Of a DNA stretch of 64,000 nt, positions 9,630 through 59,688 are shown piece after piece (the first letter of the stretch is position 1; every line of letters starts with the position of its first letter). A program made the translations under genes and the position numbers. Location: contig CM120642.1 in the NCBI GenBank assembly GCA_051362555.1, positions 11,408,001-11,472,000 on the forward strand, given 5' to 3'. The stretch is from Lingula anatina (Eukaryota; Animalia; Brachiopoda). Below the pieces are notes generated by a model. That model had not been told where the DNA came from, did not search any database, and saw only the letters and a list, made by a program, of their open reading frames with translations.

Positions 9630-9681
9630 TTGGTGCTTAGTATATACCTACTCTGCATGTGCCACGGCAGGCCTACTGTAC

Positions 9682-13800: not shown

Positions 13801-15413
13801 TGAACGTCGGTCAACAACAGCCCTTCACAAGATACATTTATATCTGACGATCGTAATCTTGCGTTAGACCTCGAGAGTTTCTATCAATGTACACCGCTGT
13901 TATTTGTTTATTTCAGGTTTAGCAGTAATATAGGTTACTCTGGCTTAGCGTTAAACGCCGAGGGGTTGGGTGCCAATGTATACCTTAATTTTGCTTTGCT
14001 TGGCGCCGCAGACGTTCCAGGGATGGTGCTGTCTATGTTTCTTCTAGACAAAATTGGAAGGAGGAAAATAATCTTTTTTTCTATGTGTGTTGGTGGAGTT
14101 GCTTGCGTATTGACCGGAGTTATACCTAAAGGTGAAACATTTTATTAATATATGCACGAGCTACATTTAGGAATGGAATAGTTTTATGAAATGGCAACAC
14201 ACAAAAGTCAACATTTTTTGTATGCATACGTGTTTTTAATTAATGATTATATAAGAATGCTTCACCCAGTTACTGATTACACGGAATCAAAAGATATAGA
14301 TTAAACAAAAAAAAGTTACCCTATGAATACCCGAGTACGAGTAATTCATTGTGACCGACAGAGAAATAACAAATACCAGATCCTCCAACATGACAATATT
14401 CCTTTATGATAGAATCTTTGTACTTTTTAGATATGCATTGGTTGGTAGTCACATTGGCACTCATTGGTAAAATGATGATAGGAGGCGGGGGAGCTGTAAT
14501 CTGCATGCTAGCGGCTGAGTCTTACCCAACAGTTATTAGGTCTGTCTGCCTCTCTGACAATGTGGCTCTCTGACAAAATTTATCCATTTCTTTCTCACAA
14601 GAAAATGGCGAATACTGCATATAAGCTTGTCGTTTGTACATTTTTTTTCTTATAGAGTATATAACAAAAGAGCTCTCTACGTTTTCTTAGAATTTCAGCT
14701 GGAAGTGTTTGCTTCACGCACAGTAAGGTAGACATACATATGTGTACTGATACAAATTATGTGCACTTTTCAAAGCTGTTGAAAATTATAGTATAATCCT
14801 GCATACAGATGAACCACGAATGATAATACACGTGTTCTTTTCAGAAACGTGAGCCTTAGCTTCGCCGCCTCGATGGCGCGTCTGGGAGGAGTTGTCGCAC
14901 CTCAAATCTTGCTTCTAAGTCAATTCTTCAAGCCTCTTCCATCCGTCGTTTGGGGTTGTATGGCCATATCTGCCGGAGTGATGTCATTATTTTTGAGGGA
15001 GACATTAGGGAAGCCGCTGCCTCAAACAATGGAGGAACTGGACGTTATGCTTGCAGAAAGGAGGTAATATTTACACCGTTTTGCATTTTTATTATTGTCG
15101 TTTTAAATGTATGACAGTCTTTGCGCTGAATGGCATTCATTTACTTCGAATATTTTAGAATCAACACACCAAATACGATTTAATAAGCGAAATTTAAAAT
15201 TAAAAAAAAAGAAACAAAAGAAAAGAAAAAACGGCTCTTAAAGAAGATAAAATATTTATTGATTTTCTAACGTTGTTAAAGCATGACGACAGGTGTCATT
15301 TTTATTAATAACAATAAACACGTTTTAAACTCAACAGCATGAAGTTCTGGAAAAAGGTACCACAAAGCGACGAAGCGGCAAAGGAGACAGAAATGCAAGC
15401 CATGGATGCCTGA
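10875..15413 (+). CDS. SLC22/organic cation transporter-like, paralogue C (9 coding exons)
   Basis: Exons 10875-11429, 11773-11876, 12139-12293, 12870-13038, 13357-13581, 13917-14131, 14431-14539, 14845-15063, 15338-15413. Same intron positions as paralogue B; motifs MHFDEFLKILGQFGTYQ, RFGRRP, ESVRWL, ESYPTVIR, ETLGKPLPQT. Confidence 0.92.
12379..12629. mobile_element. MITE with CAG termini and 5-bp TSD (hAT-like), intronic
   Basis: TIR CAGGGCCGTAGCCT ... AGGCTACGGCCCTG; direct repeat GTTTT at 12374-12378 and 12630-12634. Confidence 0.85.
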
Positions 15414-18700: not shown

Positions 18701-20145
18701 TGTTACGCAGGAATGTATGGTAGACTTTTTTTATCTAATGTTGACCGTTTCCTTGATTTAGTTAAAACGAGGTTTCCCGTTAATAAATGTAAATCAATTT
18801 GGATAATTATATAGTTTTTTTTTTAGCCCATAAAGAACATTTGCTGGAACGAAGGATTGATCGCGTATTATCTTTTACCTGCAGAAGTTCAGTAAATGTA
18901 TTTATATCCGATGGCTTTCCTCCTCTGCTTCCTGGGTATTCCCAATCTAGCAGAAGACCATCAAAAGTTCTGTTCCTCAAAAACTGGATTGACGTCATGA
19001 CGAACTCTCGCCTGCTTTCCTTAGTTGCCGCCATTTGACTGAATGGCTCAGATTTCATGTTCCAGCCACCCACAGCAAGAAGTGTTTTAAAATTAGGGTT
19101 AATCTTCTTAAGGTCATTGAAACGTTCATACCTAGCAAAATATGTTTAAATGCACAACTTATGTTATAATTTTAAACGCTACGGTCCTGATAAATTGTTA
19201 GAAAATAACTAAGTTAAAAAGGAAAATTAATAAACCAAGGCGGTTGTTTGTTTCTTAATGACACGATTTTTCGAAAATTTGGAAAAAAACAAAATCAACA
19301 GCATGTGGTTCAAGTTGAAAGTAAATTGCCGAAAGTAAATTGTTACGCAATTAATAAAATTTATCCATTAGATCTCCCTCTGAAAGTTATCAAATATCTC
19401 ACGTGATCCACTTACAGTCCTTTTTTCCAAGGCGTGGAGTCATCGTCCCACTCATAGGGGGCCAGTTGGTTTCCGTTCAGCTTGGCGAAAGCGTAAACGC
19501 CGTGCGTGCACAAGTGGGGGTCCACCTGTTCCGGAAAGAACTTCCCCATGCCTTGGCGATACTGGGCCCAGTTGGTGAAGAAGCAAAATAATGACTTGGA
19601 TGTGGGGGTTGATACTTGAACTGCAATGATATAATTAAAGACTGATCATTTTGTACAAGGAAGTGCTAAATGTAGAAAAAATGTATTTGTAATTTAAACC
19701 ACATAAACGTTAGCTATTAATAGATGTGCACAATCACTTTCAACGCTGAATAGCTTGTTTTGTATACTTTTAAAAATATAAGTATGTTATTTAAATATTT
19801 TCATTATTTATTATTATCATTATTATTATTTTATTATCATTATTATTATTTCAACAGTTCTTCAACCTGTTGCAAGCTGAATCATATTGAAATAGCGATT
19901 ACTATGCATCATTCATACTGATTAGATATTTTAGTGCCTACTTCCTGTTGCATGCATATTATCCCTTTCATTTTAATTTTCAAAAAACATTTTACATTTG
20001 GTCAAGTGGAAATAGTAATTGCAAAATGATGCTTTTAGATAATTAACAAAATCCAAATACCTTCGTTGTTTTCTGTCCCTCGTGTACATTCCAAGGTGAC
20101 AGCAGTCGTAAGTAGCAGAATGCAAATACTCCTGTAAGTACTCAT
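15728..20145 (-). CDS. Secreted GH18 chitinase/chitinase-like protein, ~414 aa, catalytic domain only
   Basis: Exons 20145-20061 (signal peptide), 19620-19416, 19131-18879, 18646-18522, 18318-18195, 16969-16784, 16351-16217, 15859-15728. Motifs CFFTNWAQYR, DPHLCTH, KTLLAVGGWN, FDGLLLDWEYPG, MSYDL, GLPTYG, GFLAYYEIC, WDYALDDF. Confidence 0.92.
16370..16553. mobile_element. Degenerate GC-rich MITE related to the GGCGGATCC-terminus family, in a chitinase intron
   Basis: Ends gtgtcagatccagg ... tacatccgccac resemble the termini of the elements at 8622 and 54915; no clear TSD. Confidence 0.45.
17121..17967. mobile_element. Foldback/Mutator-like non-autonomous element with long TIRs, in a chitinase intron
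   Basis: Left end (GGACAATTCCCCCC)n is the reverse complement of right end (GGGGGGAATTGTCC)n; inverted similarity continues ~300 bp inward. 9-bp direct repeat GATAGACAC at 17112-17120 and 17968-17976. Confidence 0.85.
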
Positions 20146-23399: not shown

Positions 23400-25898
23400 A
23401 TGGAGAACCAAGAGATGAGTGTCACGATGCAGGAGCGGGTAAAGGCCGCCCTTACGGACCGCCTAGGAATGTTCACCCGCAGTGACGCCCAGAGAGCGCG
23501 GTTCATGCAATACTGTGTCTACATCAGTGTAGCTGTCCTGCTGGTACTGTCAGCGATGATGATCATCGTATTTCCCATTGTTTTCGACAGCTTTTATGCC
23601 CGTACCGTTTACCCGATTAATCAAGGTAATGGTTATCACGTACAAATTAAATATGTTGGTGTTTGTATTAATTTTGATGGTGTTTAAAGAAAACATAAAA
23701 GGAAATATTGCTGATGTTTTACAAATGTCCAAAAATGGTAATTTTTAAGCGTTCTGAGTACTTTCTTACTACCCTGCCCCCAAAGAGAAAAGAGAAAAGC
23801 TAAACTTCCTTTCCTTTATCTGCGTTTTGAAAGAAAATGTGGGACTACAGCATGTTGAAAATAGTGCCAAAATTTTGCCTACGTTGCTCAGATAGAAATT
23901 CTTAAATTTTAAAATATATATACATATATATATAACCCAATCTTTAAAAAACATGGATAACTAATAACTTATCTAAGGTCAGACGGGGCGAGCTTCGTTA
24001 AGCTCCGAGACATTCAGATTTAATGTCACCATATAATTTGCATCAACATTAAGCTAACATTAAGTCTATCTTCCTGAGTTAAATGTCTAGTTATATGTTT
24101 ATTTTTATTCAAGAGCAGGGAATTTTTTATTGAAAAAAAGTTTGAAATGAATTTTAAAGAGAAAGGTTAAAGCATTAAAAAGTATTATGTATCTATTTTC
24201 TAATCAGGGTTTTTCTTCACCCACGTAAAACGAATCCCACTTTTTCCATCTATTTTTAAAATATAAATATCCTAGGAAGGCAAGTCAGCGTGTCTGTTAC
24301 AGGCCTATGAGGACATTCAGAAAATGATGAAATTATATCATAACTATTTGTGGGTTGTACATTTTACTCTTTTCATTCCAGATACTTTAACAGCCACCAC
24401 AGCGGAAAAGCACGTACCAATAGATAAACAAGAGACAACTGAAATGATCCCGACAACATCAACAGAACTGGAATTGTCAACCGAAGTCGATATAGCAACT
24501 ACGGAAGGTCAGCCCTCTAAAACAACAGCCAAACCAAAGAAAAAGACAAAAATCCCAAGTACTACTGTTACTACGAGAAAACCAACCACAACAGAGAAAG
24601 CCACAACAACAACAACCTCTCCTACAACTACGGTTCCAAAATCGACCACCTCACCTCCATCCACCACCACGACGACCAGAAAGACCACGACCACCCCCCT
24701 CAGCCCCACCATCCCCCACTGGTGGCGACTACGCTTGTCATTCTCGATCCCCCAGCCCTGCAGACGGGGTGCCAAATACCTGCACGTGAATTGCAGGAAG
24801 TACCACACCTGTATGACCGACTTTACCCTCCACGAGGCGCAATGCCCGGGCGGAACGATGTTCAACCCGCGGTCTAAAAAGTGTGATCTGGAGAAGTACG
24901 TGCACGAGTTCTGCTACAGAGTACGGCTTACGGAGCCCGAGCCGCCTGTGCAGAGGCGAATCATAACAACAACGACCACAGAGGCCCCGGAAACGACAAG
25001 TAGGTTTTCTGTGCAGAATTATGGTTTTTCTTTCATAAAAGGTGTTACATTATTTAAATGTCAATCATTCAATCTAACCTAGGATCCCACATATACCTGC
25101 GTAAATATGTGTTGAATACATATCGTCAGGCCAAGTTTTGTTTGACAAATTCCGATAATAGAAAACGATATCCTAATAAGTCATAATAATGATTTTTAAA
25201 ACAAAACTTTTACTAATATTTTAGTGATAGTAATCACTTACTTTGGAACAAAATTATTTGTGAAACAACTACGTTTCATGTCAACTCGTCACAAGAGCAT
25301 CATCAGGCCGAATGCCAACATGTTGTTTTGATAGACATGTGAACGATTCTCAATCGAGTTAGTAATTGAAATACGTACATTTTCAGCTCCGCCGCCGCTT
25401 TTTAACCCACCAATTCCGTGCGAGACGAACAGTTTGTTTCCCCACGTCAACTGTACCCTCTTCTACAAGTGTGGTGACAACGGTTTTCCATCGGTGCTGA
25501 CCTGTCCCCCTTCAAGCGAACCGGTGATCGGTACCCTCTTCTACAACGAGCGGACCAAGACTTGCGACCAATTCAACAATGTCCAAGAATGCACCATGGG
25601 CGCACATAGAACCGTCGCCGTGAACTTGATGAACCAGTTCAACCCCCCATTCCCTTGTAAGAACGGAAAGACTTATCCTCATCCGGACTGCAAAAAGTAC
25701 TACACCTGTGTGGGAGAAGTTCCCACAGAAAAGACGTGTCTTCAGCAATTCAAAAGAATGCACTTTACGACGAAGGGAGGGGGTTGTGTGGATGCTACCA
25801 AAACTTTACTCAGTGGAGAGTGCAATAATTCGGACGAAAGACAAATAGATTTTCGAAAAGGAGACGGTGGCAATAATAACGTTGAAGATACAAAATAA
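23400..25898 (+). CDS. Type II membrane (signal-anchor) protein with Thr/Pro-rich mucin stalk and three CBM14/peritrophin-A chitin-binding domains, ~451 aa
   Basis: Exons 23400-23625 (hydrophobic YCVYISVAVLLVLSAMMIIVFPIVF after ~37 polar residues), 24382-24999, 25387-25898, with phase-1 introns. Three 6-Cys units: CRRG..NCRKYHTC..CPGGTMFNPRSKKCD..C, CETN..NCTLFYKC..CP..FYNERTKTCD..C, CKNG..DCKKYYTC..C..C..C. Confidence 0.85.
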
Positions 25899-26699: not shown

Positions 26700-29600
26700 A
26701 CCAATAAGTTATAATACCATGGGGCCACTGCATGAAAAGAACAAGGCAGCAAAGCTGTCAAATGTACAGACAAAAAACAGGAAATAACTATGCACAAAAT
26801 AGGCTACTGTCAGTTCTGATGCAAAAGTACATTATGTTAAACTGCAAATTCAACATCAAATTTTAATTATCCTCAACAGGTAATACCAATGTAATTAAAA
26901 TATGTGACAAGTTTACACTTTGAAAATGTATAACTTCCAGAAAAAGAAGTCACTTAGACTGCTTTTCCAACTCAGACTGCATTTTAGTCCTGTATTTCTT
27001 TTTTGAAAGTTCGGCAATCATAAGTAACATGGTTTTCCCATAATGGTCATCATGGCAGCAGCACCCAAAATTGTGTTTTCTTATATTCTGATGCAATATT
27101 ACATAATGGTTAACAGCATAATGACCGTCAATTTTTAATAATAAAATATACGTATCATGGATTTTCAGAAAATGTGACTAGCATGGGTCTTCAAGCCCGT
27201 GGAACTTCAAAGTCACACCTTGAAAATGCCAATATGTGAAAAATTAAGTTTTCACAAAATAACTGTTTAACTGGCAGTAAGAATTACCAAACAGACTGTA
27301 TTTCCTACTGAAGCTGTATTTTAGTCCCATGTTTCTTTCCTGTAAGTTTGAGAACAGTAAATGACATGGTTTTTCTTAAATGGTCATCATGGGAGCAGTG
27401 CCCAAAATAGTTTTTTTTTTCAAATTTTGATGCAATATTACATAATGTTTAACAGCATAATGACCATCAACTTTAATAATAAAATATTAGTATTATGGAT
27501 ATTCAGAAAATGTGACTAGCAAAGGTCTTCAGGCTCATGGAACTTCAAAGTCACAACTTGAAAATGCCAAAATGTAAACGAGACAGCACTGTTCTGAAAT
27601 GTTTTTTTTCCATTTTTAACAATTTTTAACATAAAACAAAATTAACAGTTTTCTGCCGTTTTTATATTATCAACTAAGAAAATTGATGAGATGGGAAAAA
27701 TATCAACAGAGCAGTGTTAAATGTCCAATCTCTCCCATTCTGAGATTCTGAACATAGTGAATGATTGAATCTGACAAACTGCAATGATATTTCCATTTTT
27801 GAAACTTTATTACACAATACACGATAACAAGTTTACCATCATTTTTACATAATCAACTAATAATGTTGTAAAATTGCAGGAAATGCCAAACAAACACTTT
27901 TACGTATCTTATTAGTTCAATAATGAAACTGTTTACATGCCTAAGAATTAAATCTGAGGAAATGTGAAAAAAACTGCATTTCTTTAAAATAATGGCCCGA
28001 TTATGCTGATTTTTGAACTCAACCTGCGTTTTAGCAGAAATGACCACTCCTGTGAGTTTAATGACAATTGGCCTATCTGTTTTTCTTATATTGTGTTTAC
28101 AGTGTTGCATATATGCTGAAAAGTGAAAAAAAAAGCATAACTACTAAAATAGTGGTCCGATCATGCCGGTTTTCGAACTTGACCTGCGTTATAGTAAGAT
28201 TGATTACTCCTGTGAGTTTCATGACAAAAAGCTTATCGGTTTTCCTTGAAATGTGTTTACAGTGTTGCATATATGCTGAAAAGTGAAAAAACAGCATAAC
28301 TTCTACATTAATGGCCCGATCATGCTGATTTTCGAACTTGACCTGCATTTTATGAATATTCATCAGCTCTGTAAATATACAGCCAAAAAGTAAAACTGCC
28401 TTCCACTTATCATGTTTACAATGAAAGTGCATGGCACCAGCGACAGCGACAGTGACGGCAACGACGGCGACGACAGACGCAGGTGATGGCAATATGTACA
28501 GACACATCTGTACATATTAACTGTACTGTTTGAGCACAGTAAGTGACATGGTTTTTCTTAAATGGTCATCATGGGAGCAGTGCCCAAAATAGTTTTTTTT
28601 CAAATTTTGATGCAATATTACATAATGTTTAACAGCATAATGATCATCAATTTTTAATAATAAAATATTAGTATCATGGACAAATAGTAAACGTGACTAA
28701 CAAAGGTTTTTAGGCTGATGGGACTTCAAAGTCACACCTTAAAAATGCCAAAATGTAAACAAGACTGCACTGTTCTGAAATGGGTTTATTTCCATTTTTA
28801 ACACTTTTTTAACATAAAACAAAATTAATAGGTTACTGCCATTTTTAAAAGATCAACTAAGAAAATTGATGAGATGGGAAAAATATCAATAGAACAGTGT
28901 TAAATGTCCAATTTCTTCCATTCTGAGATTCTGAACATAGTGAATGATTGAATCTGACAAACTGCATGATATGAGTTTATTTCCATTTTTGACACTTTAT
29001 TACACAATACACGATAACAAGTTTACCATCATTTTTACATAATCAACTAACAATGTTGTAAAGATTCAGGAAATGTCAAACAAACACTTTTACGTATCTT
29101 ATTACTTAAATAATAAGGCTATTAACATGCCTAAGAATTAAATCTGAGGAAATCTGAGGAAATGTGAAAAAACAGCATAACTTCTAAAATAATGCCCCGA
29201 TTATGCTGATTTTCGAACTCAACCTGCATTTTAGTAAGACTGACCGTTCCTGTGAGTTTAATGACAATTGGGCTTTCTGTTTTTCTTATATTGTGTTTAC
29301 AGTGTTGCATATATGCTGAACAATGAAAAAACCGCATAACTACTAAAATAGTGGCCAGATCATGCTGATTTTCGAACTTGACCTGCGTTTTAGTAAGATT
29401 GATTACTCCTGTGAGTTTCATGACAACAGGCCTAATGGTTTTCCTTAAAATGTGTTTACAAGGTTGCATATATGCTGAAAAGTGAAAAAACAGCATAACT
29501 TCTACAATAATGGCCCGATCATGCTGATTTTCGAACTTGACCTGCGTTTTATGAATATTCATCAGCTCTGTAAATATAAAGCCAAAAAGTAAAACTGCCT

Positions 29601-45217: not shown

Positions 45218-48200
45218 ATGGCCGACCAAGGAGGGTGGCCGTTTTCCTCCGATACTTTACCCGATCTAGGAGCAAGTTTCAATGTACCTTCAGATTTAGA
45301 AACAACAGGAATAGGTGACATAGATGGTAAGAGCATTTTGTGAAAATTTGGTGTTTGTAGGCCGTGTACTTCCAAAGTTATGCACGTTGTTTACAACTTG
45401 CCTCCAGTCCTAAAAGAACCGTGTTTGTGCGCTCCAGCTGTCAGAACAGTTTCATTCGCATTAACTTTGAAAAGCATGACATAAATGGTCAACACTTGAT
45501 TTATTGTATGGGGCTGCTGTTGCTGTAAATGTTTCTGGTCAAACAACTACAATGTGTTGGTGTATTTCCAACTCCTTCAGTCTAATCTGAGCAATTGTTT
45601 TAATGTCAAGGAAAATGGACGATCAGCCTGTTACTATCAAGTGTGACGCGACGAGATCTCAGTGCTCGACTTTTCTTATAGTCTTTCTAAATAGATATTG
45701 CTCTGAACGATAAAAAATGTATTTCAGTGTCATATTCAGTTCACAGCAGATCTTGAAGTTGAGTGTCATAGTACTACTGAACTTGCGTACTGCATTTTGA
45801 GACCACACAGTTATCTACCCCGTATCTTGAGTAAGGTTGAGTTTTATGTGTACATTTCAGTGTTGCATCAGTTGTAAATGATATTTTTAATTTTATTTGA
45901 CAAATGAATTGATATCGAAATTAATATCCACACATCATTGCTTGTTTTTCAGATATGATGCAATATTTGTGTCCTGGTGCACCTCCAGATGATTTGTTTG
46001 ATGGTCAGTTATCAGCTATCAAAACAGACCCAGATCTCTTGTCTCCAGTGCTGGATGACCCGAACTTAAATCTTGACAATTTAGATGCTCTTCTAAATTT
46101 CAATGAGTCACAGACACTTAAACCTCCCCCTGATTACAAGCAAGTAACACAACAGCAGCAGCAGCAACCACTGAGGCAATTATTTCAACAACAGCCACAA
46201 ATTCAACAGAAGCAGCAACAATCAGCGCAGAACGTGAAGCAACAGCAGCCACAGCAGTTATTATTACAACAGCTAGCACAGCAAGTGGAACAGCAGAAAT
46301 TACAAAATGCCTTGCAGAATTTACAACGGCAACAGCAGCAGCAGCAACAACAGCAGCAAGCACAAGTTACTTTACAGCAGTTACAACAGGTATGTACACA
46401 TATGTGGAAACTGCTGCAGAATGACACATAAAAGATAAACTTGATATTTCAGAAAGTTTGAAATAATAATAATTAAAATTGTGATAAAAGGAATGGGCAG
46501 TTTATAGTCCTGTGTTCATTGAAGTAGGTTGGTTTTTGGTTACGTCTAAAATGTGTTTCTAGTATTGTTGAAATATATTTAATTATATATTTTTTGTTTT
46601 CCAGTTGTTACTGCAAGCACAGATGAAGCCAGATACCTCCCCAAAGGTAGTTACCATCTCGACCACCTCTCCAGCTTTGAGTAATTTGAGCAATGTGAAC
46701 ACTGTGACCACTTCAGTCAACCCTGTCCAAACTGTGGTGACCACTAGCCAAGGCAGCGCAATACTGACCACTAGTATCCCCATACAGCTGGTGGACGCTG
46801 AGAAGGTTCCCATCTCCAGGTTGAATACATCTCAGACCAAAAACCCACCCAAAGGAGAGAAGAGGACAGCGCATAATGCTATTGAGAAAAGATACAGGCT
46901 CAGTATCAATGATAAGATTCTGGAGCTGAAAGACCTTGTGTCAGGGACTGATGCTAAGGTATGAAATGTTTGGAAGTATTATTAAGTGTTTTTATGATGC
47001 AAGCATAAGTATTTGGTTGAGACTGGAAAATAGTCTTATTTTCATTTAACATGGAATTAATTGTTGTAAGTATATTATGTAACTATTCACACTTTTATTT
47101 TTCTAGTTGAACAAGTCTGCAGTATTGAGAAAGGCCATTGAATATGTGAAATACATGCAACAACAGAACAATAGATTGAAGCAGGAAAATATGGCTCTCA
47201 AGATGGCCTTGAAGAAGCAGAGTGAGTATTATGGATCTTATTTACATAGGGTGGGGGGGGGGGAGGTTTCAAAATATGTAAAGAATAGAACCTGCTTAGA
47301 TGAGGGTGCAATTATTTCAGTAATTAGGATTGTTTGACTAATAAATGTTGTTTTTATTCAGACATTGCAGATTTACTGACCAGTGGTCAGGAATACTTGA
47401 CCCCACCTAATTCTGAGACTGGGTCTCCAATCCACAGTCCTCCTACCAGTGATACTGACCAGCCAGTTAGTCCATGTTCTAGTGAGGACAGCAACTCTTC
47501 AGGTAATAATAAGAACTAATGATGTGATTTATAGCTTATGAAACATGCTGTTGTTAAACTATTTGTTTCACCATAATACATTTGCCTTAAAAGATCTATC
47601 ACTGGCTGTGATGTTAAGATGAGAAACTGAAGATCAATGTGTAATGCTTTTAGATGGCAGCAGCAGTCTTACTACCCGCGCCATGATGGACAGGTCTCGC
47701 ATGGCCCTGTGTGTGTTCATGTTTGCTATCTTGGCATTCAACCCTTTTGGTGCTCTGATGGGCAGTGTGGACAGAGGAATAGCTGGGGATTACACAGGGG
47801 GACATATGGGCAGTGCAAGAACGCTTAACAGCCTGGGAAGTGAAGGTAAGTTTGAAGAATACATTAAATCATAAGTCATAAACATTTATAAAACATGGTT
47901 GTGTGAATTGAGATTCTGTATGGTGTAGACGAAAAAAGTACTCCTCGATGAGTAACATAGAATACCTATATGTCAACATCAAGATTGTCACTTTTTACTT
48001 CAGATCTTGCAAGTGGTCCAGTCAGCTGGTGGGATTGGTTATTCCCTTCAGCATTCATATGGATGTTAAACACAATACTGGTGTTTGGGGTGCTGGCCCG
48101 TATTCTCATCTATGGAGAACCTGTGACCAAGCCCTTATCTGAAACTTCAGTGCAGTTTTGGCGGCATCGCAAGCAGGCAGATATGGATTTAGCACGGGTA

Positions 48201-49014
48201 AGTACATAACAGGTGTGATGGTGTTGGAATTTAATCCAAGACTTTAAATTTTTTATTTAATGTTTTAATTGAACAGTATATTGATGTAACATTTATAAAT
48301 TGTTGTATATTCATGTCACCTTCAAAGATTCAAAAACAAGTGTACTCATTTTAGGGGGAATACAACACGGCCAACATTCAACTACAGAAAAGTCTTTCTG
48401 CCATTGGTCGTTCCTTACCAACCTCCAACTTTGACCTAGCAGCAAGTATGTTTTGGAACCTCCTGCGCCAGGCCCTTCATCGTCTCTATATTGGCAAGTG
48501 GATGTCCTGCAGGGCCGGGGGCTTGAGGACAAGTGAATCCAAGGCCACAGAAGCCAAGCAGTCCTCAAAGAATGCTGCTTTGGCCTATCATAAGCTAAAC
48601 CAACTATGGCTAACAGGTAGGAAACATTATCATGTCAAGATAAATATGTTTTATATTCTATCAAATTGTTAACAGTAAAACCAATTCCCCCTATGAAAAT
48701 GACACTTTAAGCTGAACTCTTGCTGAAAGGTTGCAGTGTTAGCAATTGTTTGCTCACTCTTTAAGTGCCTAAAAACAGCTTGTTGTTGAAAAGTGACAAG
48801 GCAAATGAAGCTTTCTGTAAGTCCCTTTTCTGTTTTGTTTCTTAGGACATGGTGGCGGAGGTGTGCTGTCAGGTTTAAATCTAGCACTGAGTAGTGTGAA
48901 CTTGGCCGAAGCTGCTGCAGACCAAATATCCCAGGAGTCCCTGGCTGAAATCTATGCCACTGCAGCTGTCACTGCTAAAGTGGGCCTACCAGTTGCAATG
49001 CAGTTCCTTGCAGT

Positions 49015-49052
<38 letters not shown>

Positions 49053-52000
49053 TGGGCAAGAGGGGGTTGGGGTGGTATTAACATGCCAACATGAACCAAT
49101 GCATTTTTTTAAACCCATGAATATTATTGAATAATAAGATTTGTATATAATACATCAGTGTAATCATGGACAGTACATCTGATCACTTCTGCATTCTAGC
49201 GTTATTTCCTGAGCAAGGCCAGGACTGTGTGTAAGAGTGGCAGTGGCCAAATCCCTGTATCCATGCAGTGGCTATGTCACCCACTGGGACACAGGTTCTT
49301 TGTCAGTGGCAGCTGGACCATTGGAAGCAAGGACAGCATTTATAGCTCACTGACCAGTGAAGGTGAGACACTGAACATTTGGCTCACAACATTCTAGCAA
49401 TTTTACACTGTGTTACCTTGCAAATTAGTTGGTTCAATAAGTGCAAAAAGTTTCCAGCTTTTGATTTGTATTAAAGTGAAGATTGACAAAATACTTGATA
49501 TCATCTTATTTCTACATAGTCATAATGTCAGGGATGGCATAGATTAGTTTAATGTGATCCTGTATTTTTCAGCTGACCCGCTGGCCTGTGTAATGCGTGC
49601 ATTCAGAGAGCACCTGCTGGAGAAGGCCTTGTACACACTGGTCACTCCTGGTTACAGTTCACCAAACATCCACAATGGTGACCACAGTGCAGATGGGTAG
49701 GTTTATTAAGTTGGCACATTCTCTGTAAAATAACCTTTGTTTGACATATTTCTCGTATTGAATTGGATTTGCTAGATCTGAAAAAAAAGTTAAAAGCTCA
49801 AGTGGTCTAAAGATTTTTCTTACTTAACAAAGGTACAATGTTTGGATGTAGGAATGATGCAAAAATTTTATCAGAAGTTGTGAAAATACAAGAGAGAACA
49901 TTTATGTATTGTCTTATCTGTTAATCTTACTATTCTCTCTGGGTGTCTTTTGGTCAGTGAAATCTGTTGCAATGAGCATTCTGTCTGGTTCTTGGAGTAT
50001 AAACGTTAAAAGTCAAGTCTTGTCTTTTCTAGGTCACCCTCAGTCAGTGAGGTCTTGCAGTACAGCCAGCTACTAGCAGACTGCTCCAATGCAGCCAGCA
50101 CTGTGATCAAGTTGGAGGGAGGCGTGATGATAGTCAGTGGGGACGAGGTGTCCAGATGGTGGTCAGCTGTTCTGTCTGTTGGAGCCTATTGGTTGATGGG
50201 AGATGATGTGGCTGCAGAGAAACAGTTCCCCATCATTGAGACATTCCCCAAAGCATTGAAAGAGAAAGAGTGAGTCTTTTCTTATGCCTTTGTTGTGAAA
50301 ATGAGTTCGAGTTTTAAAGGGGTCATATGTCCTTTAAAAATATAATAAAAAGAATAGGAAAATAAGAATTAATGCTAAAAGTCAGAATTAGAGTGGTCAG
50401 TAGAAAGTGTTATGATGTTAAATGTTATAGTATGTTATATCTCATTCTTATCACCTATAAGTTGAAAGCCATAAAACAGTTTCATATTTTATTTCTAGCC
50501 ATCCTCTCCCCAAGAGTGTTCTGATCATGTTCAAAGCGAGGAAGAACCTGCTGTCTGATCACAAGTCTAGTTGCAGTTTTAACACCATCAAGCTGTGTAA
50601 CCAGGCCGGCCATTTGCTGAGAGACAGTCTGCACATGGGAGCAGAGAACAGGAGCTGTCAAAAAAACATGGTGGGTGTGAAAATGCCTATCATGCATCGT
50701 TGTGTTGTTTGTGAATTATAAATATGTGGAACTTGAAGGAGAGAGCCACACTGCAGTGAAGAATGCACGTTGTGCAAGTGATTTATCTAGCAGCAGCAGC
50801 AAATCCGAGATGTTGCCTGTCTCTCTAGTGCATTGTAGTTGCATTGCATTGGCTGTCATAGTATGCAATGCATCTGCAGTGCAAATAGAGCGACTGGAGC
50901 TATCAACAAAAGCAAAGGGATGGATGTATTTAGGGGCTTATAGCAGCATGAAGCGTGCTTAACGGGTTATACAAGGCTTTGCAGTAACAGGAGGCCAGAT
51001 TAATAAAATTTTTAAATGACGATTTAAGTTGTGATGTAAATAGTTACCGTGGAATAACAAGAGTATTTGTAAACAATGATTGACTAAAGTTTCATTTTGG
51101 TTTTGGTTTTCAGATGAGTATAAATTCAAGATTGGTCTGGTTTCAGTTGAATGTGCTATTACTTCACTATATATGTTTGAATATAGGCTGTTCAGCTGTT
51201 GGTGTGTGACTGGCTGCTGTTGTCCAGGACCAGTGTGTGGCAGGCTGACAGTGAGAAAGGAACAAGTATAGTGTCCTCGTCTGAACTGGCAGCATTCCAG
51301 CAAGATTTAAGCTGTCTGAGACAACTAGCACAATGCTTTAAAGTGGCATTACGAAGAGTGAGTATAGATTAGTAGAATCAATGTAGCATTGTTTTCAAAG
51401 TGGATTCCTGCTTTATTCTATTAAAAACTAAGTGGAAAATCAAAACTCACGCCAAATTATACACCTATGTTGTTCAGGACAAAAAGCTCCAACTTGAATT
51501 CTGAAAATAATGGCAAGTAAAATATCTGATATCATATAAATTCTTCCAGGTATTTCTTCATGAGGCCACTGCTCGTTTAATGGCTGGAGCCAGCCCAGCA
51601 AGAACACAGCAATTACTAGACAGGAGTGTACGCAGGAGGCATATAACTCCTCCTTTCCATGAAAAAGGTGAGATCTATATATCTTGTAATGTTAGTCATT
51701 TAGTAGTGATAAAAAGTGCTGATATTTAAAATCAACAGACACTGACCATAATTGTTTTGTTCAACTAAGATGTTCAAGTTTGGATGATGTGCATTTCTGA
51801 ACCACAATTCAATATTTAATTTGTCTCTGAAAGTTGTTCATGAGAAGGATAAGAAATAATTCTTGTATTGTATACCAGCTTGTTAGAGAAACCTCATTTG
51901 TTGAAACAAGCAGCCTGGCCACCACCACCTTATTTTCGTGTCCATTTCCCAGATTATCCAGAGTCCAAAGATACCCCAGACCGGGCCCAGGCCACCGCAC

Positions 52001-52182
52001 TCCTCATGGCATGTAAACACCTACCTGAAGCCCTGCTAGCAGAGCCAGGGAGGCGAGCGGGAATGCTGGCTGAGGCAGAGAAGTTGTACGAACAGATGGG
52101 AGACACCCGTGCTGCTCAGGACTGTAGGCAAATGATGGTTAAAATGACCACAAGCAAGGTGCCTTTACAGGTGGCTTACTAG
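45218..52182 (+). CDS. SREBP: Sterol regulatory element-binding protein (16 coding exons)
   Basis: Exons 45218-45326, 45953-46389, 46605-46958, 47107-47221, 47362-47502, 47654-47845, 48004-48197, 48355-48616, 48846-49012, 49200-49362, 49573-49696, 50033-50269, 50499-50670, 51187-51357, 51550-51667, 51953-52182. bHLH-Zip [20 protein letters not shown] with the SREBP-diagnostic Tyr; DRSR-TM1-NP (site-2); luminal RTL (site-1-like); FWRHRKQAD; [26 protein letters not shown]. Confidence 0.95.
49017..49051. repeat. (GT)n microsatellite just after an SREBP donor site
   Basis: Direct reading. Confidence 0.95.
50821..50891 (+). ncRNA. mir-33: pre-miR-33 hairpin in an SREBP intron
   Basis: GTGCATTGTAGTTGCATTGCA at 50828-50848 is the mature miR-33-5p sequence. 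The complementary arm TGCAATGCATCTGCAGTGCA lies at 50864-50883, with basal stem ctct(ct)a/tagag; it is intronic and sense to SREBP. Confidence 0.95.
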
Positions 52183-52803: not shown

Positions 52804-54844
52804 CTATTTTATTTCCACTTCAGTGTCGACAAGCAGTCTCCATTCGGATCCTGACACTTCTGTAAGCGCACCCAGACCATCGCACAATTTGAATGCCATT
52901 GTGGCCTTCTCGCCACCGGATGGGGTGAAATCTACTTCCCCAAATAGCATGAGAACGGCCGAGTCGTCTTCCTTTTTCCGCACGATAGCGCCACTGTCAC
53001 CAGGCTCGCAAAAAATCTCATTATTATAAATGTGCTCCAGAAATACGACATTCTCAATCCCAGTACTAAATTGCGTGAAATCTCTACCGTTGATCCTACT
53101 TTCTGTGCGACCCGTCGTTGCTCCAATTTTGTACATAACTTTTTCAGACAGCAGCTTCACATCAGACTTCCATACCTGCAGTAAACAAAGATTGTGAAGG
53201 GCGACGTAATCCAAAGCGCAGTCGTCCATTATTTTCAGTCCACAGGCTTTCAAGGCTGTTATATCTACCCACGGAAAATTGCCTGAATTTCTGTCATTGA
53301 CGAGATACCCACAAACGCATGTAATTTCTTGATCATTTGTTAAATGTACGATAAATGAGTCTTTGTCTTTATCTTTAACGCCGTGTCCTGCACTAAGAAG
53401 GTACACTTCACCTTCTGTCCCAGTTGTTGCGTATGCCCCTAATGTCATGTAGCTTTCGCGATCGGAGTCCTCTTTTTTAGGTATGTTTAATTTAGCACCT
53501 GAGCTTGGCGGATAATTATAAAATGTTATCTTAACAGGAGACTCTGCAAATACCACGTCACAGTCAGTTTTATCTATATTGCCGTGAGTCTCCACCAATG
53601 ATTTCACCATCTCCTCTACTTCTTCATTTGTTTTTCCCTCGCACATGCTAAGACAGACGTGAACTCTGAGTCGGTTGTTCCAGATCTCCATGCAGTCGAT
53701 AAACTTGAACCTAGTAAAGATGGAGACAGAGACATTTTATTGTAACAATAAAAATAAAACAATACTTGGTAAAGCAATAAACAGTTGGCCTACCACCAGC
53801 AACTATTGCAAGTGTAACGTGACTTCATGAAACGTAATTTGCTTTAGTTTTCCAACGGAATATTTCACATATCACTTCTATTTTCATTCATATCGATTAT
53901 ACTGAAATGTTTTACTTTAAAACAAACTATTTATACAGAAAAGACATTTTTAAAATGTAACTTTCATTAATTTTTCAAATGTATTTATTTCTTAAAAAAG
54001 AAAAGTCGTACTTCCTCAGTTCATCCTTCAGGATCTTTGGAATTTTTTCACATTGCGCCACATCTAACCTTTCCACAGTGTGAATGCCAGGTGCATCTTT
54101 GGGGGATGCAGGATTGCATGTGCCCAAACCACTGGAAAGAGAGTGAAACGCTTGTTTCTTTTATCTACTTTGTGGGCATTGTTTGAGTTCAATATATCGC
54201 GTGAGAGAGAGAGAGAGAGAGAGAGAGAAAGAAAGTCTGTGCACATCGATGAAGTTGCAGGGTTCTCTATATGAACGATTTGATCCAACCTTTACATTAA
54301 AGTTACAATGTCTTTGTACTAAAACTATAACATACACCAAAACATGTATAAAAGTTAACATGTGATGATATAACAGAGTTTAAATTGGGAAGACAGAGAG
54401 AAGGTTTAATATCACCTTCGACCATTCCCTGGTGATTTGAGAAGGGCTCCCCTCTCCATACATTCCTTGCGAAAGTCAGTGCTACCCCACTATGTCCATT
54501 TCCACGGATCCGATGTAAGTACTAAATAGTTCATTATTTCATTATTAACATTAACATTTACCTTGAATTAATTTCTTCATTGCGGAAAGGAGGGCCGACT
54601 TTGGGTAATCTATGACTACGGGTTTTCGGCGTATCCTGATTATCAGAGAGACCAACACTGGTAGATTTGCAGCTTTCAGGTGCCTTCCTCAGGGCTTTTA
54701 CTACAACGAAACAAGGACAACTTTTTTTATTTGCAATACGCTCATTGTGATGTTATTACTGATATCATCCAGAATATGTCATAATACGATGTCCAAACCA
54801 GTTACAGAAAAGTAAGCTTCAGTTATTAAGTCACCTGATGTGAG

Positions 54845-54916
<72 letters not shown>

Positions 54917-57900
54917 GTGGGGTTTTAGAGGGGAGAGGGGTCAGGGGGGACCTGTTCCCCCCCTTCGATTACTGAAAAAAAATCACACCACTAGCTGAAT
55001 CATAGTTCTAAACCGTACCAAATGGCACCGTTTGCCCTCCAAAATACCAAAAATTTTCGGGGTCCTTCAACGAGTCCTGAAGGGGGGAAGGGGGGGGGGG
55101 AGGGCCGGCTTTGCATATCAGACCCCCTTTTCAATAATACTGGATCCGCCCCTGTATATTTCTTTCGGTTGTTTTTTCAAACGATATCGCAAGACGTCTT
55201 CAGAGACGACAAACGCAGTTGGGTATGTGGATCTCCAATCATAGAGACAAGGTGAATTTTTCATGACGATTTCTTTAAAATTCAAATATCTGAAGAAAGA
55301 TTAATTTTATTATTTTTATCAAATTTGCAACCTGAGAGTTGGATAATCACTGCATCATAGTAGAAAAAAAACAGTAGACAATAAGAATAAAGGAATATTA
55401 AAAGACACATATAAACAAATTTAAAACAAAATAACTAAAAGGTTAAAAAAGAAATAAAAGTCTATCTGTTAATATTGAAACTTGTATATGGCACTGGTTA
55501 AAAAGTCACTCATTAATCGTTCTGTATTAATTTTAGGTCTTTTGAATGTCTCCTGCTCTCTTATGAATATTTGGCATTTTGTTTTGGTTGTAAAAGATAA
55601 TGCAATCTATGATCCGGTTCATTTGATATCCTAATAAACAATTAATGCGTTTTATCTTCGAGACTACAAATAAAGAACTGACTTTAATGTGTAATACTTA
55701 CAGATATAATTGCTCGTCCAGTGTATGTAGGCCATGAACGCAGCTATTAACACAAATATCACAACAAATATCACAACAAGTGCAATGGTCAATGGACGTA
55801 ATGCATGTAGCCATTTGATCAAAATATCCGGTGAATTGTCATCGGTATCCGCTACAGTGTTCAAGATTAAAAAAAAAGAAAACTGTTAGGTACAGTATAA
55901 GCTTATATAACCAACATGTTATAACTTCACTCAGCAAATACAGAATGTAGTAAATTGCAGTCAGTAACGTAAAGCATAAAAACAAAAACTTTTCTAGGCA
56001 TTCTACCCACTTTCCAAAATAAAATGACTGTTTCCTTCCCTGTTCCATGGCTCGAATGAAAAAATGCTGATTAACAGCCCCACAGAAAAGTACATAAAAT
56101 GCCTCAAAATGGGTCATATTTTCAGAAAACAAAAATGGAAAATGTCCTTGCAACTTTAATTTGAACCCCAGCCCCATTTTAACATGCTGGATAAACCAGT
56201 GACATGGGAGTAACAATGCATAATCTGCATTACATTTCTGTATTACATCTCTTTATGTAATGCAAAGTAAAAAAATTGACTATATAGCGCATGATAGCGC
56301 ATGGTTATTGTTAAGTAAACCTTACAAGATTTTTCTTTCACTGAAAGCTCCATGTCCTTCTGTGTGGAAATTGTGCCAAAAGCCACGGCTGAAAACGCGA
56401 GAGTCGTACAAGTTGGTATGGCTGACATGTTGGTTGTGTATTTCGATGTGTTCCTTGGGTGTATCCTTCCTAGTTCGACACCGTTTTCACTACTTATAAA
56501 AACAAGTAAAAACAAGTAGCTTTATAGTATGACATGAAACGGAGTGTATTAGAAGTTAAACAACGTGTTTACCTTTAAATACATTACAAGCGCAAAAGCA
56601 CACGCATATAAAACGTATCAAATGAGTTATAACTCGGCACTTCAACTCATTTACATACATAAAGTGTTATTACAGTTAAATGCATGGTGTTGAACTTTGT
56701 GTGCATTTTTTTTTTTTTTACCTGAAAGCCTTGTTCGTCCATTTAATACATTTTTATGTTCATAAAATGTTTATGCTCATAAAAAAACGTCCAGGACAAT
56801 CAAATTACTCTTTAGGCTTGAGGCTACTACGTGTTGTCATATTTGGACAAATGTTATTTTTTTTACTTAGTAAGTCAGTTACACATACATATATACGCGC
56901 CATTTGATTTCAAACCAGCGAAAGAATGTTCAAAACAGAATATAGAGCCATTAAATCTTATAGTGTGTAATATATCCTAAACTTTAAAGAATCATATCTA
57001 ATTAAGTCGCCTTTTTTTCTGGAATATTTGTCAAATATTTGACATAATTTTGACTTACAAAGAGGTGTTCACTGCCTGGCATACTGTGTCCGAGTATATT
57101 GTACACTGCTGGACTACAACTTCGTTAGCGCCACACACCCGGCAAGACTTGCATAAGTAATCGAACTGCTCATTAAAAGTTTCTTTAGCGATGCATGGCT
57201 TGCACTTTTCTTTGCATGGATCCTGAAACAATGATTGACAACAGATTACATAATAAATATTTCAAAAAGATCCGATAATGTAATTTTAATTACATTATTT
57301 TAATTTATTGTGGTTAAAACCACAATAGCTCAGACGTAGAAGGCCAATTCGTTGTGTACAGCTGTGTCTAGAGAGTTTTTTAACGGAAGACGCCCCAGTC
57401 TCACCCTCTACCAGGGCCGCAGAGATATGTCTCAGCTAAATGAAAGAACTTTTCTCCACTCGCGTCAGAAAAAAGTTCACACAATTATCTGCAATCCTGG
57501 TAGAGGGTATCGCAGCCTTAAGTTTCGGAAAACGCGGAAATCTGAGCAATTCTCAGCTTATTGAACAGATGATGGAGGAGAATTCAAAGGATGGTTGTCT
57601 TCAAGCGGTTGTTTTCCAAAGTTATGACTAAAACATTTTAAGTTTAAAAAATTTAAACTTACCTGTGTGTTCAGATTTTTTCCTTTCCCTTTATGACACT
57701 TGCAGGGTCTACAGCAACCATTATGATCTATCTTATGCCAAGGCTGGCAGGGAGGGAGCGCGCGGCCTTGAAGACCACATGGCCCCGGTTGTGGTCTTAC
57801 AGTGCTCCTTCGCACAGGTGATGGGGTCCCAAGCGCGGCCTAAAGTTTAAAAATCAGTACAGGGACCAAGCCTTTGCTTATATCTCAAAGGTAGTCACAT

Positions 57901-59688
57901 ATCTTTTAAAGAAAAATGAGATCATTACGAGGATAACAAGGCACAGCAAAGTTGTCAAATGTACAGTCAAAAAGCAGGAAATAATGACAGACAAAAAAGG
58001 TATTTTTTTCAAATTTGATGCAATATTTCATGATATGTAACAGCAAATTCAACACCAAATTTTAATGATGAAGAGCAGGTTATACGAATGTTATGATATG
58101 TAACGGGCATAAGGCTTTAGGCACATGAGAGTTCACATGTAAGCATAGAAATGCCAGAATGATAAAAATTAAAAACATCATACATAATTCAAAATGATAA
58201 TAATAATAATCCAATCAAGGCAAGCAGGTTTTCCAATTTCAACTTTATGTCAGTCCTAAGAATTATTCTTATAGCTTAGAAATTATAATAAGTGACACAG
58301 TTTTTCCCTTCATCGCGTTTGTGATGGCAGTGCACTAAATAGACGTGTTGTAAATTCTGATGCAATGTCACATAATGATTAACAGCTTAATCACCACCGA
58401 TTTTATTTAACTACTATACTTATCATAGGCATATAGAAAATGCAACTACCATATGGCATTAAGCCCATGGGAGTTCTAAGGGCGCTTTCTAAAATGATGA
58501 TCAACGGGTTAACTGATCCACGGACTACATTTGGCCGACCCCCTTTAAACGCAAGCCGTCAAATCCCCTGATGGTCTCCCCGCCACATGCGGCATTAAAT
58601 GGGCCAAATCTTGGCTTTAAGACGGGGAGGCAAGCTTGTTTTTAAGTGGAGTTGGCCACATTTAGTCTGAGGATCACTTAGTCTGTGGATCATCTGTTCT
58701 GAAAGCTATACAAGGCAAACATTGAAAATACAAATATGTGAAAAAAGAACATTCCAACAGACGCAATTCTCCAAGAACGACAAGAAGAAGCTGTATTACA
58801 GTCCCATAAACATTTTTTGTAAGTTTTAAGAATCATAAGTAACACGGTTTTCCTTTAACAGTCATAACACGGCATTTGATACAATATTACATATTGCCAA
58901 CTTATTTTTAATAATATGATAAAAGTATCATGGATATTCAGACAATGTGACCAACAATTGCCCTAAGCCCATGGAACTCCAACGCGCACTTCGTCCTTGG
59001 TATAACATATGATTATAATAGTAAAAAATAGCATAACTTTTGGAAAAAAGGCCCAATCAATCTAGTTTCCAAACTCCGCCTGTATATTTGTAATATTGAA
59101 CTATCGTATATGTTAGAAGACAATAGGACTATAAGTTTGCCCTAAATTTTTTATTTTTATTGCATAAGTATAATATAGTCTGTAAACAAAACCCCATCAG
59201 GCTGTAACGAGCTGTATCTAAGTCTTATTCATTATTCCTGTAAGTTTGAAGACAATAGGTCAAATGGTTTTTCCCTGTAATGTGGTATCAGTATTGAATA
59301 TAGTATAATATATTCAGAAAAAAAAAATAATAAAAATAAAATAAAAATAAAAATAAAAAAACAGCATAACTTCAAGAAAAAAGGTCTAATCAAGCTGATT
59401 TTCAAATGTGACATGTATTTTAGTAATATTGATAACTCCTGTAGGTTTGGAGACAAAACGCCGGTCGGAATATTAGATCTTAGGTTTACTTTAAAATATG
59501 TATCTGTATTTCATAAAGTACAATATTTGATTTGATGGCAACTATTTCAAACTGAAAATAATTAAATGAATCGGATAATAAGGAATATAAACGAAATGCT
59601 AGCGAACAAAGTTGAGAAATAATTATACAAATTTGCAAGTTTGTCTTACCAGAAAGCAGAAAACCAACGCCAAACACTTTAAGTCCAT
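52804..59688 (-). CDS. Predicted type I membrane protein: signal peptide + 2 TNFR-type cysteine-rich domains + TM + cytoplasmic trypsin-like serine protease (~619 aa)
   Basis: Exons 59688-59650, 57839-57663, 57222-57059, 56489(or 56492)-56326, 55851-55702, 54700-54562, 54131-54012, 53710-52804. All GT-AG; phases 0,0,2,1,1,2,2 give one open frame of 1860 nt. Triad motifs SAGH (53385), VDIT (53265), GDSG (52995). Probable 5'UTR exon ending at donor 60556. Confidence 0.72.
54203..54227. repeat. (GA)n microsatellite
   Basis: Direct reading. Confidence 0.95.
54847..55154. mobile_element. (TA)n tract abutting a CAG-terminus MITE (54915-55154)
   Basis: Ends CAGTGGGGTTTTAG ... CTGGATCCGCCCCTG, flanked by TATATT on both sides; same right terminus as the element at 8622-8789. 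Confidence 0.65.
57935..59460. repeat. Diverged copy of the 26.7-29.7 kb repeat family, in the first coding intron of the TNFR-protease gene
   Basis: acaaggcacagcaaagttgtcaaatgtacag..aaaaagcaggaaataa (57937) matches 26741; ctgatgcaatgtcacataatgattaacagc and cagcataactt..aatcaagctgattttc match the unit motifs at 27-29 kb. Confidence 0.7.

What the first reader, a model, noticed from the sequence alone, without database searches (positions are those of the whole stretch)
52804..59688. TNF-receptor-like ectodomain fused to a cytoplasmic serine protease: candidate ligand-activated 'receptor protease'
Seen in sequence: eight minus-strand exons with canonical splice sites join in one frame, and most are too short for the ORF track. 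They give MDLKCLALVFCFL|AALG (signal peptide), then CQPWHKIDHNGCCRPCKCHKGKGKNLNTQ|DPCKEKCKPCIAKETFNEQFDYLCKSCRVCGANEVVVQQCTIYSDTVC, a Ser/Thr stalk, the TM LTIALVVIFVVIFVLIAAFMAYI, a basic stop-transfer LKALRK, a linker, and a ~300-aa domain with TLGAYA, LLSAGH, VDITAL, KIGATTGRT and PGDSGAIV. Established knowledge: CxxC..TF..CxxCxxC..CT..SDTVC is the TNFR cysteine-rich-domain pattern. TNFR-family tails normally carry death domains or TRAF-binding motifs and recruit proteases (caspases) indirectly. The xAGH/D/GDSG plus KxGxTTGxT pattern is the chymotrypsin fold of the alpha-lytic/Nal1/Ssy5 type. Inference: ligand-induced clustering could trigger proximity auto-activation of a tethered intracellular serine protease, collapsing receptor-adaptor-protease into one chain. 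I know of no described TNFR with this architecture.
Basis: partly seen in the sequence, partly recalled or inferred. Interest (0 to 1): 0.92.

Follow-up and report, generated by a model that had tools for sequence, protein, structure and literature searches.

The report
Brachiopod TNF receptor with built-in protease
In a lamp-shell (brachiopod-like) genome, exons for a TNF-receptor outer domain and a membrane anchor sit in frame just upstream of an intact serine-protease gene piece, likely forming a single receptor that would cut proteins inside the cell when its ligand clusters it, but the splice that joins the two halves is predicted, not yet seen in RNA.

Summary
The parts are real. Eight GT-AG exons join in one frame to 620 aa: signal peptide, a TNFR_c6 domain above Pfam's cut-off, one TM helix beyond chance, and a chymotrypsin-fold protease with an invariant His-Asp-Ser triad whose best structural match is rice NAL1. 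The closest relatives are two Lingula anatina RefSeq proteins, listed on scaffolds of the same length (490,919 nt), that split the locus: a 127-aa ectodomain and a 456-aa protease. The decisive junction (55702 to 54700) remains untested. For it: a perfect donor, only 1 of 10 candidate acceptors stays open, and the protease exons have no good start of their own. Against it: the split annotation, no fused homologue found, and reads from a diverged relative that cover the first part of intron 5 at exon depth, which suggests a short-tailed receptor mRNA. Best reading (0.6): one gene with a short isoform and a long receptor-protease isoform. The idea is not new: a cDNA-validated TNFR-caspase exists in amphioxus (PMC2575513). 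A NAL1-type serine protease in that role was not found in print. The scan noted NAL1-type immune fusions on other DNA, but not a TNFR one.

The parts
59650..59688 (-). Exon 1 (coding part): start codon and signal-peptide core, aa 1-13. An acceptor-like AG 6 nt upstream suggests an earlier untranslated exon.
   Evidence: same start and join in RefSeq P0030; signal peptide judged by hydropathy only
57663..57839 (-). Exon 2: end of signal peptide, Pro-rich segment, atypical first cysteine-rich repeat (aa 14-72)
   Evidence: no Pfam hit alone; 80% identical to P0030; covered by reads and joined to exon 3 in 14 reads
57059..57222 (-). Exon 3: canonical TNFR cysteine-rich domain (C82, C96, C99, C102, C112, C120). 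Reading through its donor meets a stop at once, giving a 127-aa secreted form.
   Evidence: TNFR_c6 34.8 bits against cut-off 29.4; DR5, CrmE and p75 hits; read-through
56326..56492 (-). Exon 4: Ser/Thr-rich stalk with N-glycosylation sequons (aa 127-182)
   Evidence: GC 0.44; no homologue and no read junction seen
55702..55851 (-). Exon 5: stalk end and transmembrane helix (aa 203-225, about 55724-55792); perfect GTAAGT donor
   Evidence: KD 3.37; 0 of 300 shuffles at KD 3.0 or more; donor
55290..55701 (-). First part of intron 5: candidate 3' end of a short-tailed receptor isoform (read-through adds 13 aa, then a stop; AATAAA at 55311)
   Evidence: read depth matches exons 2-3 in 2 of 4 runs and is zero in the same 2 runs; inferred
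54562..54700 (-). Exon 6: basic juxtamembrane residues and low-complexity cytoplasmic linker (aa 233-278); no Met, and an in-frame stop lies about 20 codons upstream
   Evidence: likeness to P0001 weak and not significant by local alignment
54012..54131 (-). Exon 7: linker end and start of the conserved module; no Met
   Evidence: aligns with P0001, score 107, 0 of 1000 shuffles; matching residues in P0002 and P0006
52804..53710 (-). Exon 8: small alpha/beta domain (about 55 aa), then a NAL1-type chymotrypsin-fold protease. H428 at 53385-53383, D468 at 53265-53263, S558 at 52995-52993; stop codon; AATAAA at 52796.

Best explanation
This is likely one brachiopod gene whose full-length mRNA would encode a type I TNF-receptor-family protein carrying a NAL1-type serine protease on its cytoplasmic side, predicted to be switched on when a trimeric ligand clusters the receptor. 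Shown: the exon chain and open frame, the TNFR domain, one TM helix, the protease fold and its triad. Inferred: (1) exon 5 splices to exon 6 in at least some tissues, while early polyadenylation in intron 5 makes a second, short-tailed receptor that could act as a decoy or damper; (2) the protease lies in the cytosol, because no second TM follows and basic residues K234, R237 and K238 follow the helix; (3) ligand-driven trimers or lattices bring the tethered protease modules together on their ~90-residue linkers, and the assembly orders the catalytic triad, as hexamer assembly does in rice NAL1; (4) the active protease cleaves a cytosolic target (latent transcription factor, repressor or death effector) in innate immunity or cell death, skipping the death-domain adaptor and caspase steps.
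For: All 7 intron phases match and all sites are GT-AG. The exon 5 donor is a perfect GTAAGT. Of 10 candidate acceptors from that donor to 54700, only 54700 keeps the frame open to a donor in phase with exon 7; the other 9 stop within 22 codons (the filter is not exhaustive, since exon 5's own acceptor fails it). Exons 6 and 7 hold no Met, exon 7 is conserved coding sequence, and none of 11 ATG-led phase-1 mini-exons in intron 5 has a GTRAG donor. A separate protease gene would have to fit its promoter, first exon and intron into about 1 kb that also holds a repeat and a (TA)33 run. The relative's two RefSeq models face each other on scaffolds of the same listed length (490,919 nt) and both look cut. 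P0030 ends at exactly the length that read-through of the exon 3 donor gives (127 aa), and neither model contains a TM exon; that an assembly or model break caused this is inference. The same protease module is fused to a sensor domain elsewhere in Lingula (LRR plus Nal1_C in P0002), which parallels the amphioxus pair LRR-caspase and TNFR-caspase. No cysteine is invariant in the family alignment, which fits a cytosolic enzyme. NAL1 needs its hexamer for activity (PMC12012508 passages).
Against: No read evidence for the 5-6 junction; reads were laid only on exons 1-5 and most of intron 5. In the two runs that express exons 2-3, the first part of intron 5 is covered at exon depth: 17 and 11 reads against 15 in X9, 5 and 2 against 4 in X7, and zero in X1 and X4 for both. 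Most receptor mRNA in those samples may therefore end before exon 6. RefSeq annotates two genes. No protein of 528-2000 aa with this protease was found among 1577 candidates (weak, word-based), and the only TNFR relative found is the 127-aa form (1 of 1 candidates). Exon 6 is not significantly like P0001 by local alignment. No ligand, substrate, activity or oligomer was tested.
Confidence: 0.6

Rival explanations
1. Two separate same-strand genes: a short-tailed (or 127-aa secreted) TNFR-like decoy whose mRNA ends in intron 5, and a soluble cytosolic NAL1-type protease with its own small first exon in intron 5 or 6.
For: RefSeq splits the relative's locus this way. The first part of intron 5 is covered at exon depth and holds AATAAA at 55311. 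ATG-led mini-exons with weak to moderate donors exist, such as ATG at 55513 with GTGACT at 55509, plus 9 phase-2 candidates for exon 7. No N-terminal TM or TNFR domain was seen in the other 9 family members aligned, and no TNFR-like cysteine pattern in 32 of 32 metagenome loci.
Against: The perfect donor at the end of the TM exon has exon 6 as its only open-frame partner. Space for a promoter is very tight. Reads at 55336 lie downstream of the best mini-exon donor, so they fit a 3' end better than a first exon. P0001's 22-aa leader has no significant counterpart in intron 5 (32 of 400 shuffles score as well), so no conserved independent start was found.
Confidence: 0.3
2. The fused mRNA exists, but the protease is not activated by clustering. 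It is held by its N-terminal alpha/beta domain as an autoinhibited pro-enzyme and is released by cleavage or degradation of that domain after receptor signalling, as in yeast Ssy5; or exon 5 is skipped (exons 4 and 6 are both phase 1) to give a secreted form.
For: Weak Peptidase_S64 hit (E 0.006, below cut-off). A separate ~55-aa domain precedes the protease in the model. The Ssy5 prodomain mechanism was seen in abstracts in the search listing only. Exon 5 is phase-symmetric, 150 nt.
Against: Profile and structure searches rank NAL1 first (E 3.6e-10; Foldseek ranks 1-10). The N-terminal domain is short for an Ssy5-type prodomain (Ssy5's long prodomain is recalled). The lack of invariant cysteines argues against a secreted enzyme.
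Confidence: 0.07
3. The protease exons are a decaying or rarely expressed remnant next to an ordinary decoy TNFR.
For: The protease is less conserved against the relative (79%) than the ectodomain (85%). Its expression was not examined.
Against: A 907-nt exon is open with the full triad in both lineages, and the relative has a RefSeq model of it.
Confidence: 0.03

Closest known systems
Amphioxus TNFR-caspase hybrid receptor (Brafl1_82667; PMC2575513, passages read; additional files not seen)
   Same: [quoted passage not shown]
   Different: The protease here is a His-Asp-Ser chymotrypsin-fold enzyme, not a cysteine caspase, so the architecture would have arisen independently, in a protostome. 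The amphioxus fusion is cDNA-validated; this one is not.
Rice NARROW LEAF 1 (NAL1; PDB 7Y77, 8HAU, 8PMG; Pfam Nal1_C PF25819; PMC12012508, passages read)
   Same: Best profile hit (E 3.6e-10) and best Foldseek hit (E 2.4e-9); VIA Z 15.4, rmsd 4.2, 207 aligned, tied with other trypsin folds; same triad and a small domain before the protease.
   Different: NAL1 is a soluble hexameric cage that binds ATP and cleaves FZP; here the module would be tethered to a membrane receptor. Identity is about 15%, and the window protein itself gives no Nal1_C hit.
TNF receptor superfamily (DR5/TNFRSF10B, p75NTR; Pfam TNFR_c6)
   Same: Signal peptide, cysteine-rich domain, stalk, single TM.
   Different: Described as non-enzymatic receptors that recruit adaptors (bioRxiv 10.1101/2021.12.26.474206, passages read). 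Here no Death-family Pfam hit in exons 6-8 and no PxQxT motif; only one canonical and one atypical cysteine-rich repeat.
Yeast SPS sensor (Ssy1-Ptr3-Ssy5; Pfam Peptidase_S64; abstracts seen in search listing)
   Same: An intracellular chymotrypsin-like protease activated downstream of a plasma-membrane receptor; weak S64 hit.
   Different: Receptor and protease are separate chains, and activation is by prodomain degradation.
Lingula anatina LOC106164199 (P0030, 127 aa) and LOC106164211 (P0001, 456 aa)
   Same: 85% identical to aa 1-123 and 76% to aa 276-618 of the model; both listed on a 490,919-nt scaffold.
   Different: Annotated as two uncharacterised genes; neither has the stalk or TM exon; P0001 has a ~50-aa longer linker and a different leader. 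Their order and spacing on the scaffold could not be read.

Membership tests
TNF receptor superfamily | At least one TNFR cysteine-rich domain | tested here: met
   TNFR_c6 34.8 bits against cut-off 29.4; the relative P0030 scores 29.1, just under the cut-off; all 10 Atlas structure rows are TNFR clusters
TNF receptor superfamily | Signal peptide and a single TM helix (type I) | tested here: met
   Hydropathy only; no SignalP or TM predictor was available; the exon 3-4-5 joins are unseen in reads
TNF receptor superfamily | Non-enzymatic tail with a death domain or TRAF-binding motif | tested here: not met
   No Death-family hit in exons 6, 7 or 8; no PxQxT; one loose TRAF2-like 4-mer at 346 inside the folded domain (motif patterns recalled). 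It is filed as a TNFR-ectodomain protein, not a canonical TNFR.
TNF receptor superfamily | Binds a trimeric TNF-family ligand | not testable with these tools
   No ligand was identified
Chymotrypsin-fold (PA clan) serine proteases | His-Asp-Ser triad in order with a GDSG motif | tested here: met
   H428, D468, S558 invariant in 11 of 11 aligned sequences
Chymotrypsin-fold (PA clan) serine proteases | Double beta-barrel fold | tested here: met
   Model pLDDT 76, pTM 0.68; VIA Z 14-16 to trypsin folds over residues 62-291 of exon 8
NAL1-like proteases (Nal1_C, NAL1_N) | Nal1_C at Pfam gathering score | tested here: inconclusive
   No hit for the window protein; 2 of 12 search hits pass the cut-off (P0002 40.6, P0011 30.5); the family profile finds NAL1 first in the PDB
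NAL1-like proteases (Nal1_C, NAL1_N) | N-terminal ATP-binding domain (NAL1_N) | tested here: inconclusive
   A beta-beta-alpha-beta domain is modelled, and Foldseek aligns about 345 columns to NAL1 at high rmsd, but there is no NAL1_N hit and VIA covers only the protease
NAL1-like proteases (Nal1_C, NAL1_N) | Activity depends on oligomer (hexamer) assembly | not tested
   No complex prediction was obtained
Peptidase S64 (Ssy5) | Pfam gathering score | tested here: not met
   15.6 bits against 23.6
Amphioxus-type TNFR-protease shortcut receptor | Intracellular domain is a caspase | tested here: not met
   Serine protease fold and triad; it may work like one but is not a member
Amphioxus-type TNFR-protease shortcut receptor | TNFR ectodomain, TM and protease on one transcript | tested here: inconclusive
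   Genomic support; junction not examined in reads; intron 5 coverage points to a short isoform

The most novel reading that the evidence does not exclude
A ligand-gated receptor serine protease in an animal: a TNF receptor whose cytoplasmic domain is a NAL1-type protease that assembles into its active oligomer on ligand-driven clustering, tuned by a decoy isoform made by intronic polyadenylation. It would be a second, independent invention of the receptor-protease shortcut (after amphioxus TNFR-caspase), using a protease family that lophotrochozoans appear to attach to immune sensors in place of caspases.
Probability: 0.45. Interest if true: 0.82.

Novelty: new variant of a known kind. Interest (0 to 1): 0.64.

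Why it matters
Animal receptors with built-in kinases, phosphatases or cyclases are common (established knowledge). Receptors with a built-in cytoplasmic protease are rare; the one TNFR case found in print uses a caspase (PMC2575513). If the fusion holds, it shows the same shortcut built twice from unrelated proteases, gives the unstudied invertebrate NAL1-type proteases a defined upstream trigger, and makes a direct test possible of whether NAL1-type enzymes are switched on by oligomer assembly. It also offers a natural single-chain design for a ligand-controlled protease. One RT-PCR decides the main point.

Tried and rejected
No whole genome was held, so paralogues and synteny could not be checked. 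Single-sequence phmmer of the protease exon against the PDB gave 0 hits. The single-sequence fold was unusable (pLDDT 33); the 11-sequence alignment worked. P0003 and P0004, 2 of 12 hits, were dropped from the alignment as repeat-driven matches without the triad. No RNA holder of the stretch was listed; 4 of the 9 same-label runs were laid once, and their variants match the RefSeq relative at 2 of 2 amino-acid-changing sites, with 6 of 8 silent, so they come from a diverged allele or species, not this genome. The loose-end table was cut (154 rows not shown) and could not show where reads leave intron 5. The idea that P0001's leader comes from DNA homologous to intron 5 was tested and not supported (32 of 400 shuffles). 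Likeness of exon 6 or exons 4-5 to P0001's N-terminus was not significant by local alignment (152, 189 and 107 of 1000); the score of 61 comes mostly from exon 7. A complex prediction of three protease copies was not available. The metagenome scan gave 32 loci, none with a TNFR-like cysteine pattern; 2 of 32 have an upstream hydrophobic stretch. Literature: ten searches listed no paper on a TNFR with a serine-protease tail or on animal NAL1-type proteases; the phrase 'cytoplasmic serine protease domain' occurred in none of the 15 papers listed. Passages of PMC8195603 and PMC11463336 show no such fusion. The library lacks most subscription papers, and no supplements were read.
Full report
Observation. 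Residues 1-17 look like a signal peptide and 203-225 are a strong TM helix; no other hydrophobic segment exists. Exon 3 is a TNFR cysteine-rich domain above Pfam's cut-off (34.8 against 29.4 bits), with best PDB matches to death receptor 5, CrmE and p75. The TM exon is not a chance product of AT-rich DNA: 0 of 300 shuffles gave a splice-bounded exon with KD 3.0 or more, and only the true tile among 54 window tiles did.

The protease. Alone, exon 8 gives only a weak Peptidase_S64 hit and no PDB hit. A search of 1.84 billion representatives gave 12 hits. Ten are true relatives; the named ones come from Lingula, Mytilus, Saccostrea and Ostrea, and two repeat-driven hits were dropped. In the 11-sequence alignment His, Asp, Ser and the GDS motif are invariant and no cysteine is. 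The profile finds rice NAL1 first in the PDB (E 3.6e-10). The model (pLDDT 76) has a small alpha/beta domain followed by a trypsin fold, with NAL1 as the top Foldseek hits and Z 14-16 to trypsin-fold enzymes. The Atlas places it with unnamed mostly molluscan clusters and Nal1_C clusters. One Lingula member carries leucine-rich repeats in front of the protease (P0002).

The organism and its relative. The closest sequences are two Lingula anatina RefSeq proteins: P0030 (127 aa, 85% identical to aa 1-123) and P0001 (456 aa, 76% identical to aa 276-618), both listed on a 490,919-nt scaffold. The window is therefore brachiopod-like and diverged from that annotation (inference). P0030 supports the exon 1-2-3 joins and has exactly the length obtained by reading through the exon 3 donor into its stop. 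P0001 supports the exon 7-8 join but starts with a leader that matches nothing significant in the window. Neither model has the stalk or TM exon. This can mean two genes, or one gene broken in the middle; the scaffold DNA could not be read.

One gene or two. For one gene: the TM exon ends in a perfect donor, and of 10 candidate acceptors up to 54700 only exon 6 keeps the frame open. Exons 6 and 7 have no Met, exon 6 has an in-frame stop about 20 codons upstream, and none of 11 ATG-led mini-exons in intron 5 has a consensus donor. The 1-kb intron also carries a repeat and a (TA)33 run. For two genes, or at least a second isoform: reads from 4 of 9 listed runs, laid at 90% likeness on exons 1-5 and most of intron 5, show the exon 2-3 junction in 14 reads (X7 4, X9 10, X1 and X4 none) and cover the first ~400 nt of intron 5 at the same depth in the same two runs. 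The X9/X7 ratio there (3.4 and 5.5) follows exons 2-3 (2.7 to 13) and not the repeats (0.7 to 1.1) (counts are small and mates are not independent). An AATAAA lies at 55311. The simplest reading is a receptor mRNA that reads through the exon 5 donor and ends there, encoding a TNFR with a short tail. These reads come from a diverged allele, exons 1, 4 and 5 were mostly uncovered, and the 5-6 junction and exons 6-8 were not examined in reads. No fused protein was found in the databases, which is weak evidence because the searches are word-based and only one Lingula copy of each half was found. I put the existence of a fused mRNA at about two in three and the full best explanation at 0.6.

Mechanism. 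If fused, the protease is cytosolic: signal peptide, one TM, then basic residues. TNF ligands are trimers and cluster their receptors (established knowledge). Rice NAL1 forms stacked trimers, and only the hexamer holds the triad in an active shape (PMC12012508, passages). The likely mechanism is therefore assembly-driven activation of tethered protease modules, with the short isoform as a decoy. This is inference; no oligomer prediction, ligand or substrate was obtained. A prodomain-release route as in yeast Ssy5 (abstracts in listing) is the main mechanistic rival.

Comparison and novelty. TNFRs are described as non-enzymatic (bioRxiv 10.1101/2021.12.26.474206, passages), but amphioxus has a cDNA-validated TNFR-TM-caspase and an LRR-caspase (PMC2575513, passages; additional files not seen). 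What would be new is the protease class and the lineage. Ten literature searches listed nothing on a TNFR with a serine-protease tail. Earlier notes of this scan report NAL1-type proteases joined to immune domains in bivalves and a fungus; I checked only the Lingula LRR case. No note reports a TNFR fusion.

Verdict. Observation confirmed; interpretation partly supported; new variant of a known kind; interest 0.64, rising to about 0.8 if the 55702 to 54700 junction is shown.

Noticed in passing
P0002 (Lingula anatina LOC106181623): Leucine-rich repeats fused to the same NAL1-type protease (Nal1_C above cut-off); a cytosolic sensor-protease that parallels amphioxus LRR-caspase.
   Followed up: partly
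P0016, P0022, P0023 (Logan; Ostrea edulis): About 250-300 N-terminal residues with no Pfam hit precede the protease; possibly undescribed adaptor or sensor domains.
   Followed up: no
window 57056-57059: The exon 3 donor contains an in-frame stop, so intron retention gives a secreted 127-aa ectodomain of the same length as the RefSeq model in the relative; a possible third, soluble decoy isoform.
   Followed up: partly
window 55702-55851 and 55882: Exon 5 is phase-symmetric and could be skipped to give a secreted TNFR-protease; a second acceptor lies at 55882.
   Followed up: no
window 45925-52182 (+): A bHLH gene (HLH hit; SREBP-like by recalled motif) ends about 620 nt from the protease stop, tail to tail.
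   Followed up: no
window 3089-15100: Two divergent MFS/sugar-transporter-type genes (weak MFS_1 and Sugar_tr hits for one exon; SLC22-like by recall).
   Followed up: no
window 18807-19145 (-) and 24276-25898 (+): A GH18 chitinase exon on the minus strand and chitin-binding CBM_14 exons on the plus strand; apparently different genes.
   Followed up: no
window 57935-59460 and 26740-29560: Copies of a dispersed repeat in intron 1 match a repeat block near 27-29.5 kb; parts are abundant in all four RNA runs.
   Followed up: no
L028 and L032: Metagenome NAL1-like protease ORFs with a hydrophobic stretch upstream (KD 2.44), probably a signal peptide or membrane anchor.
   Followed up: no
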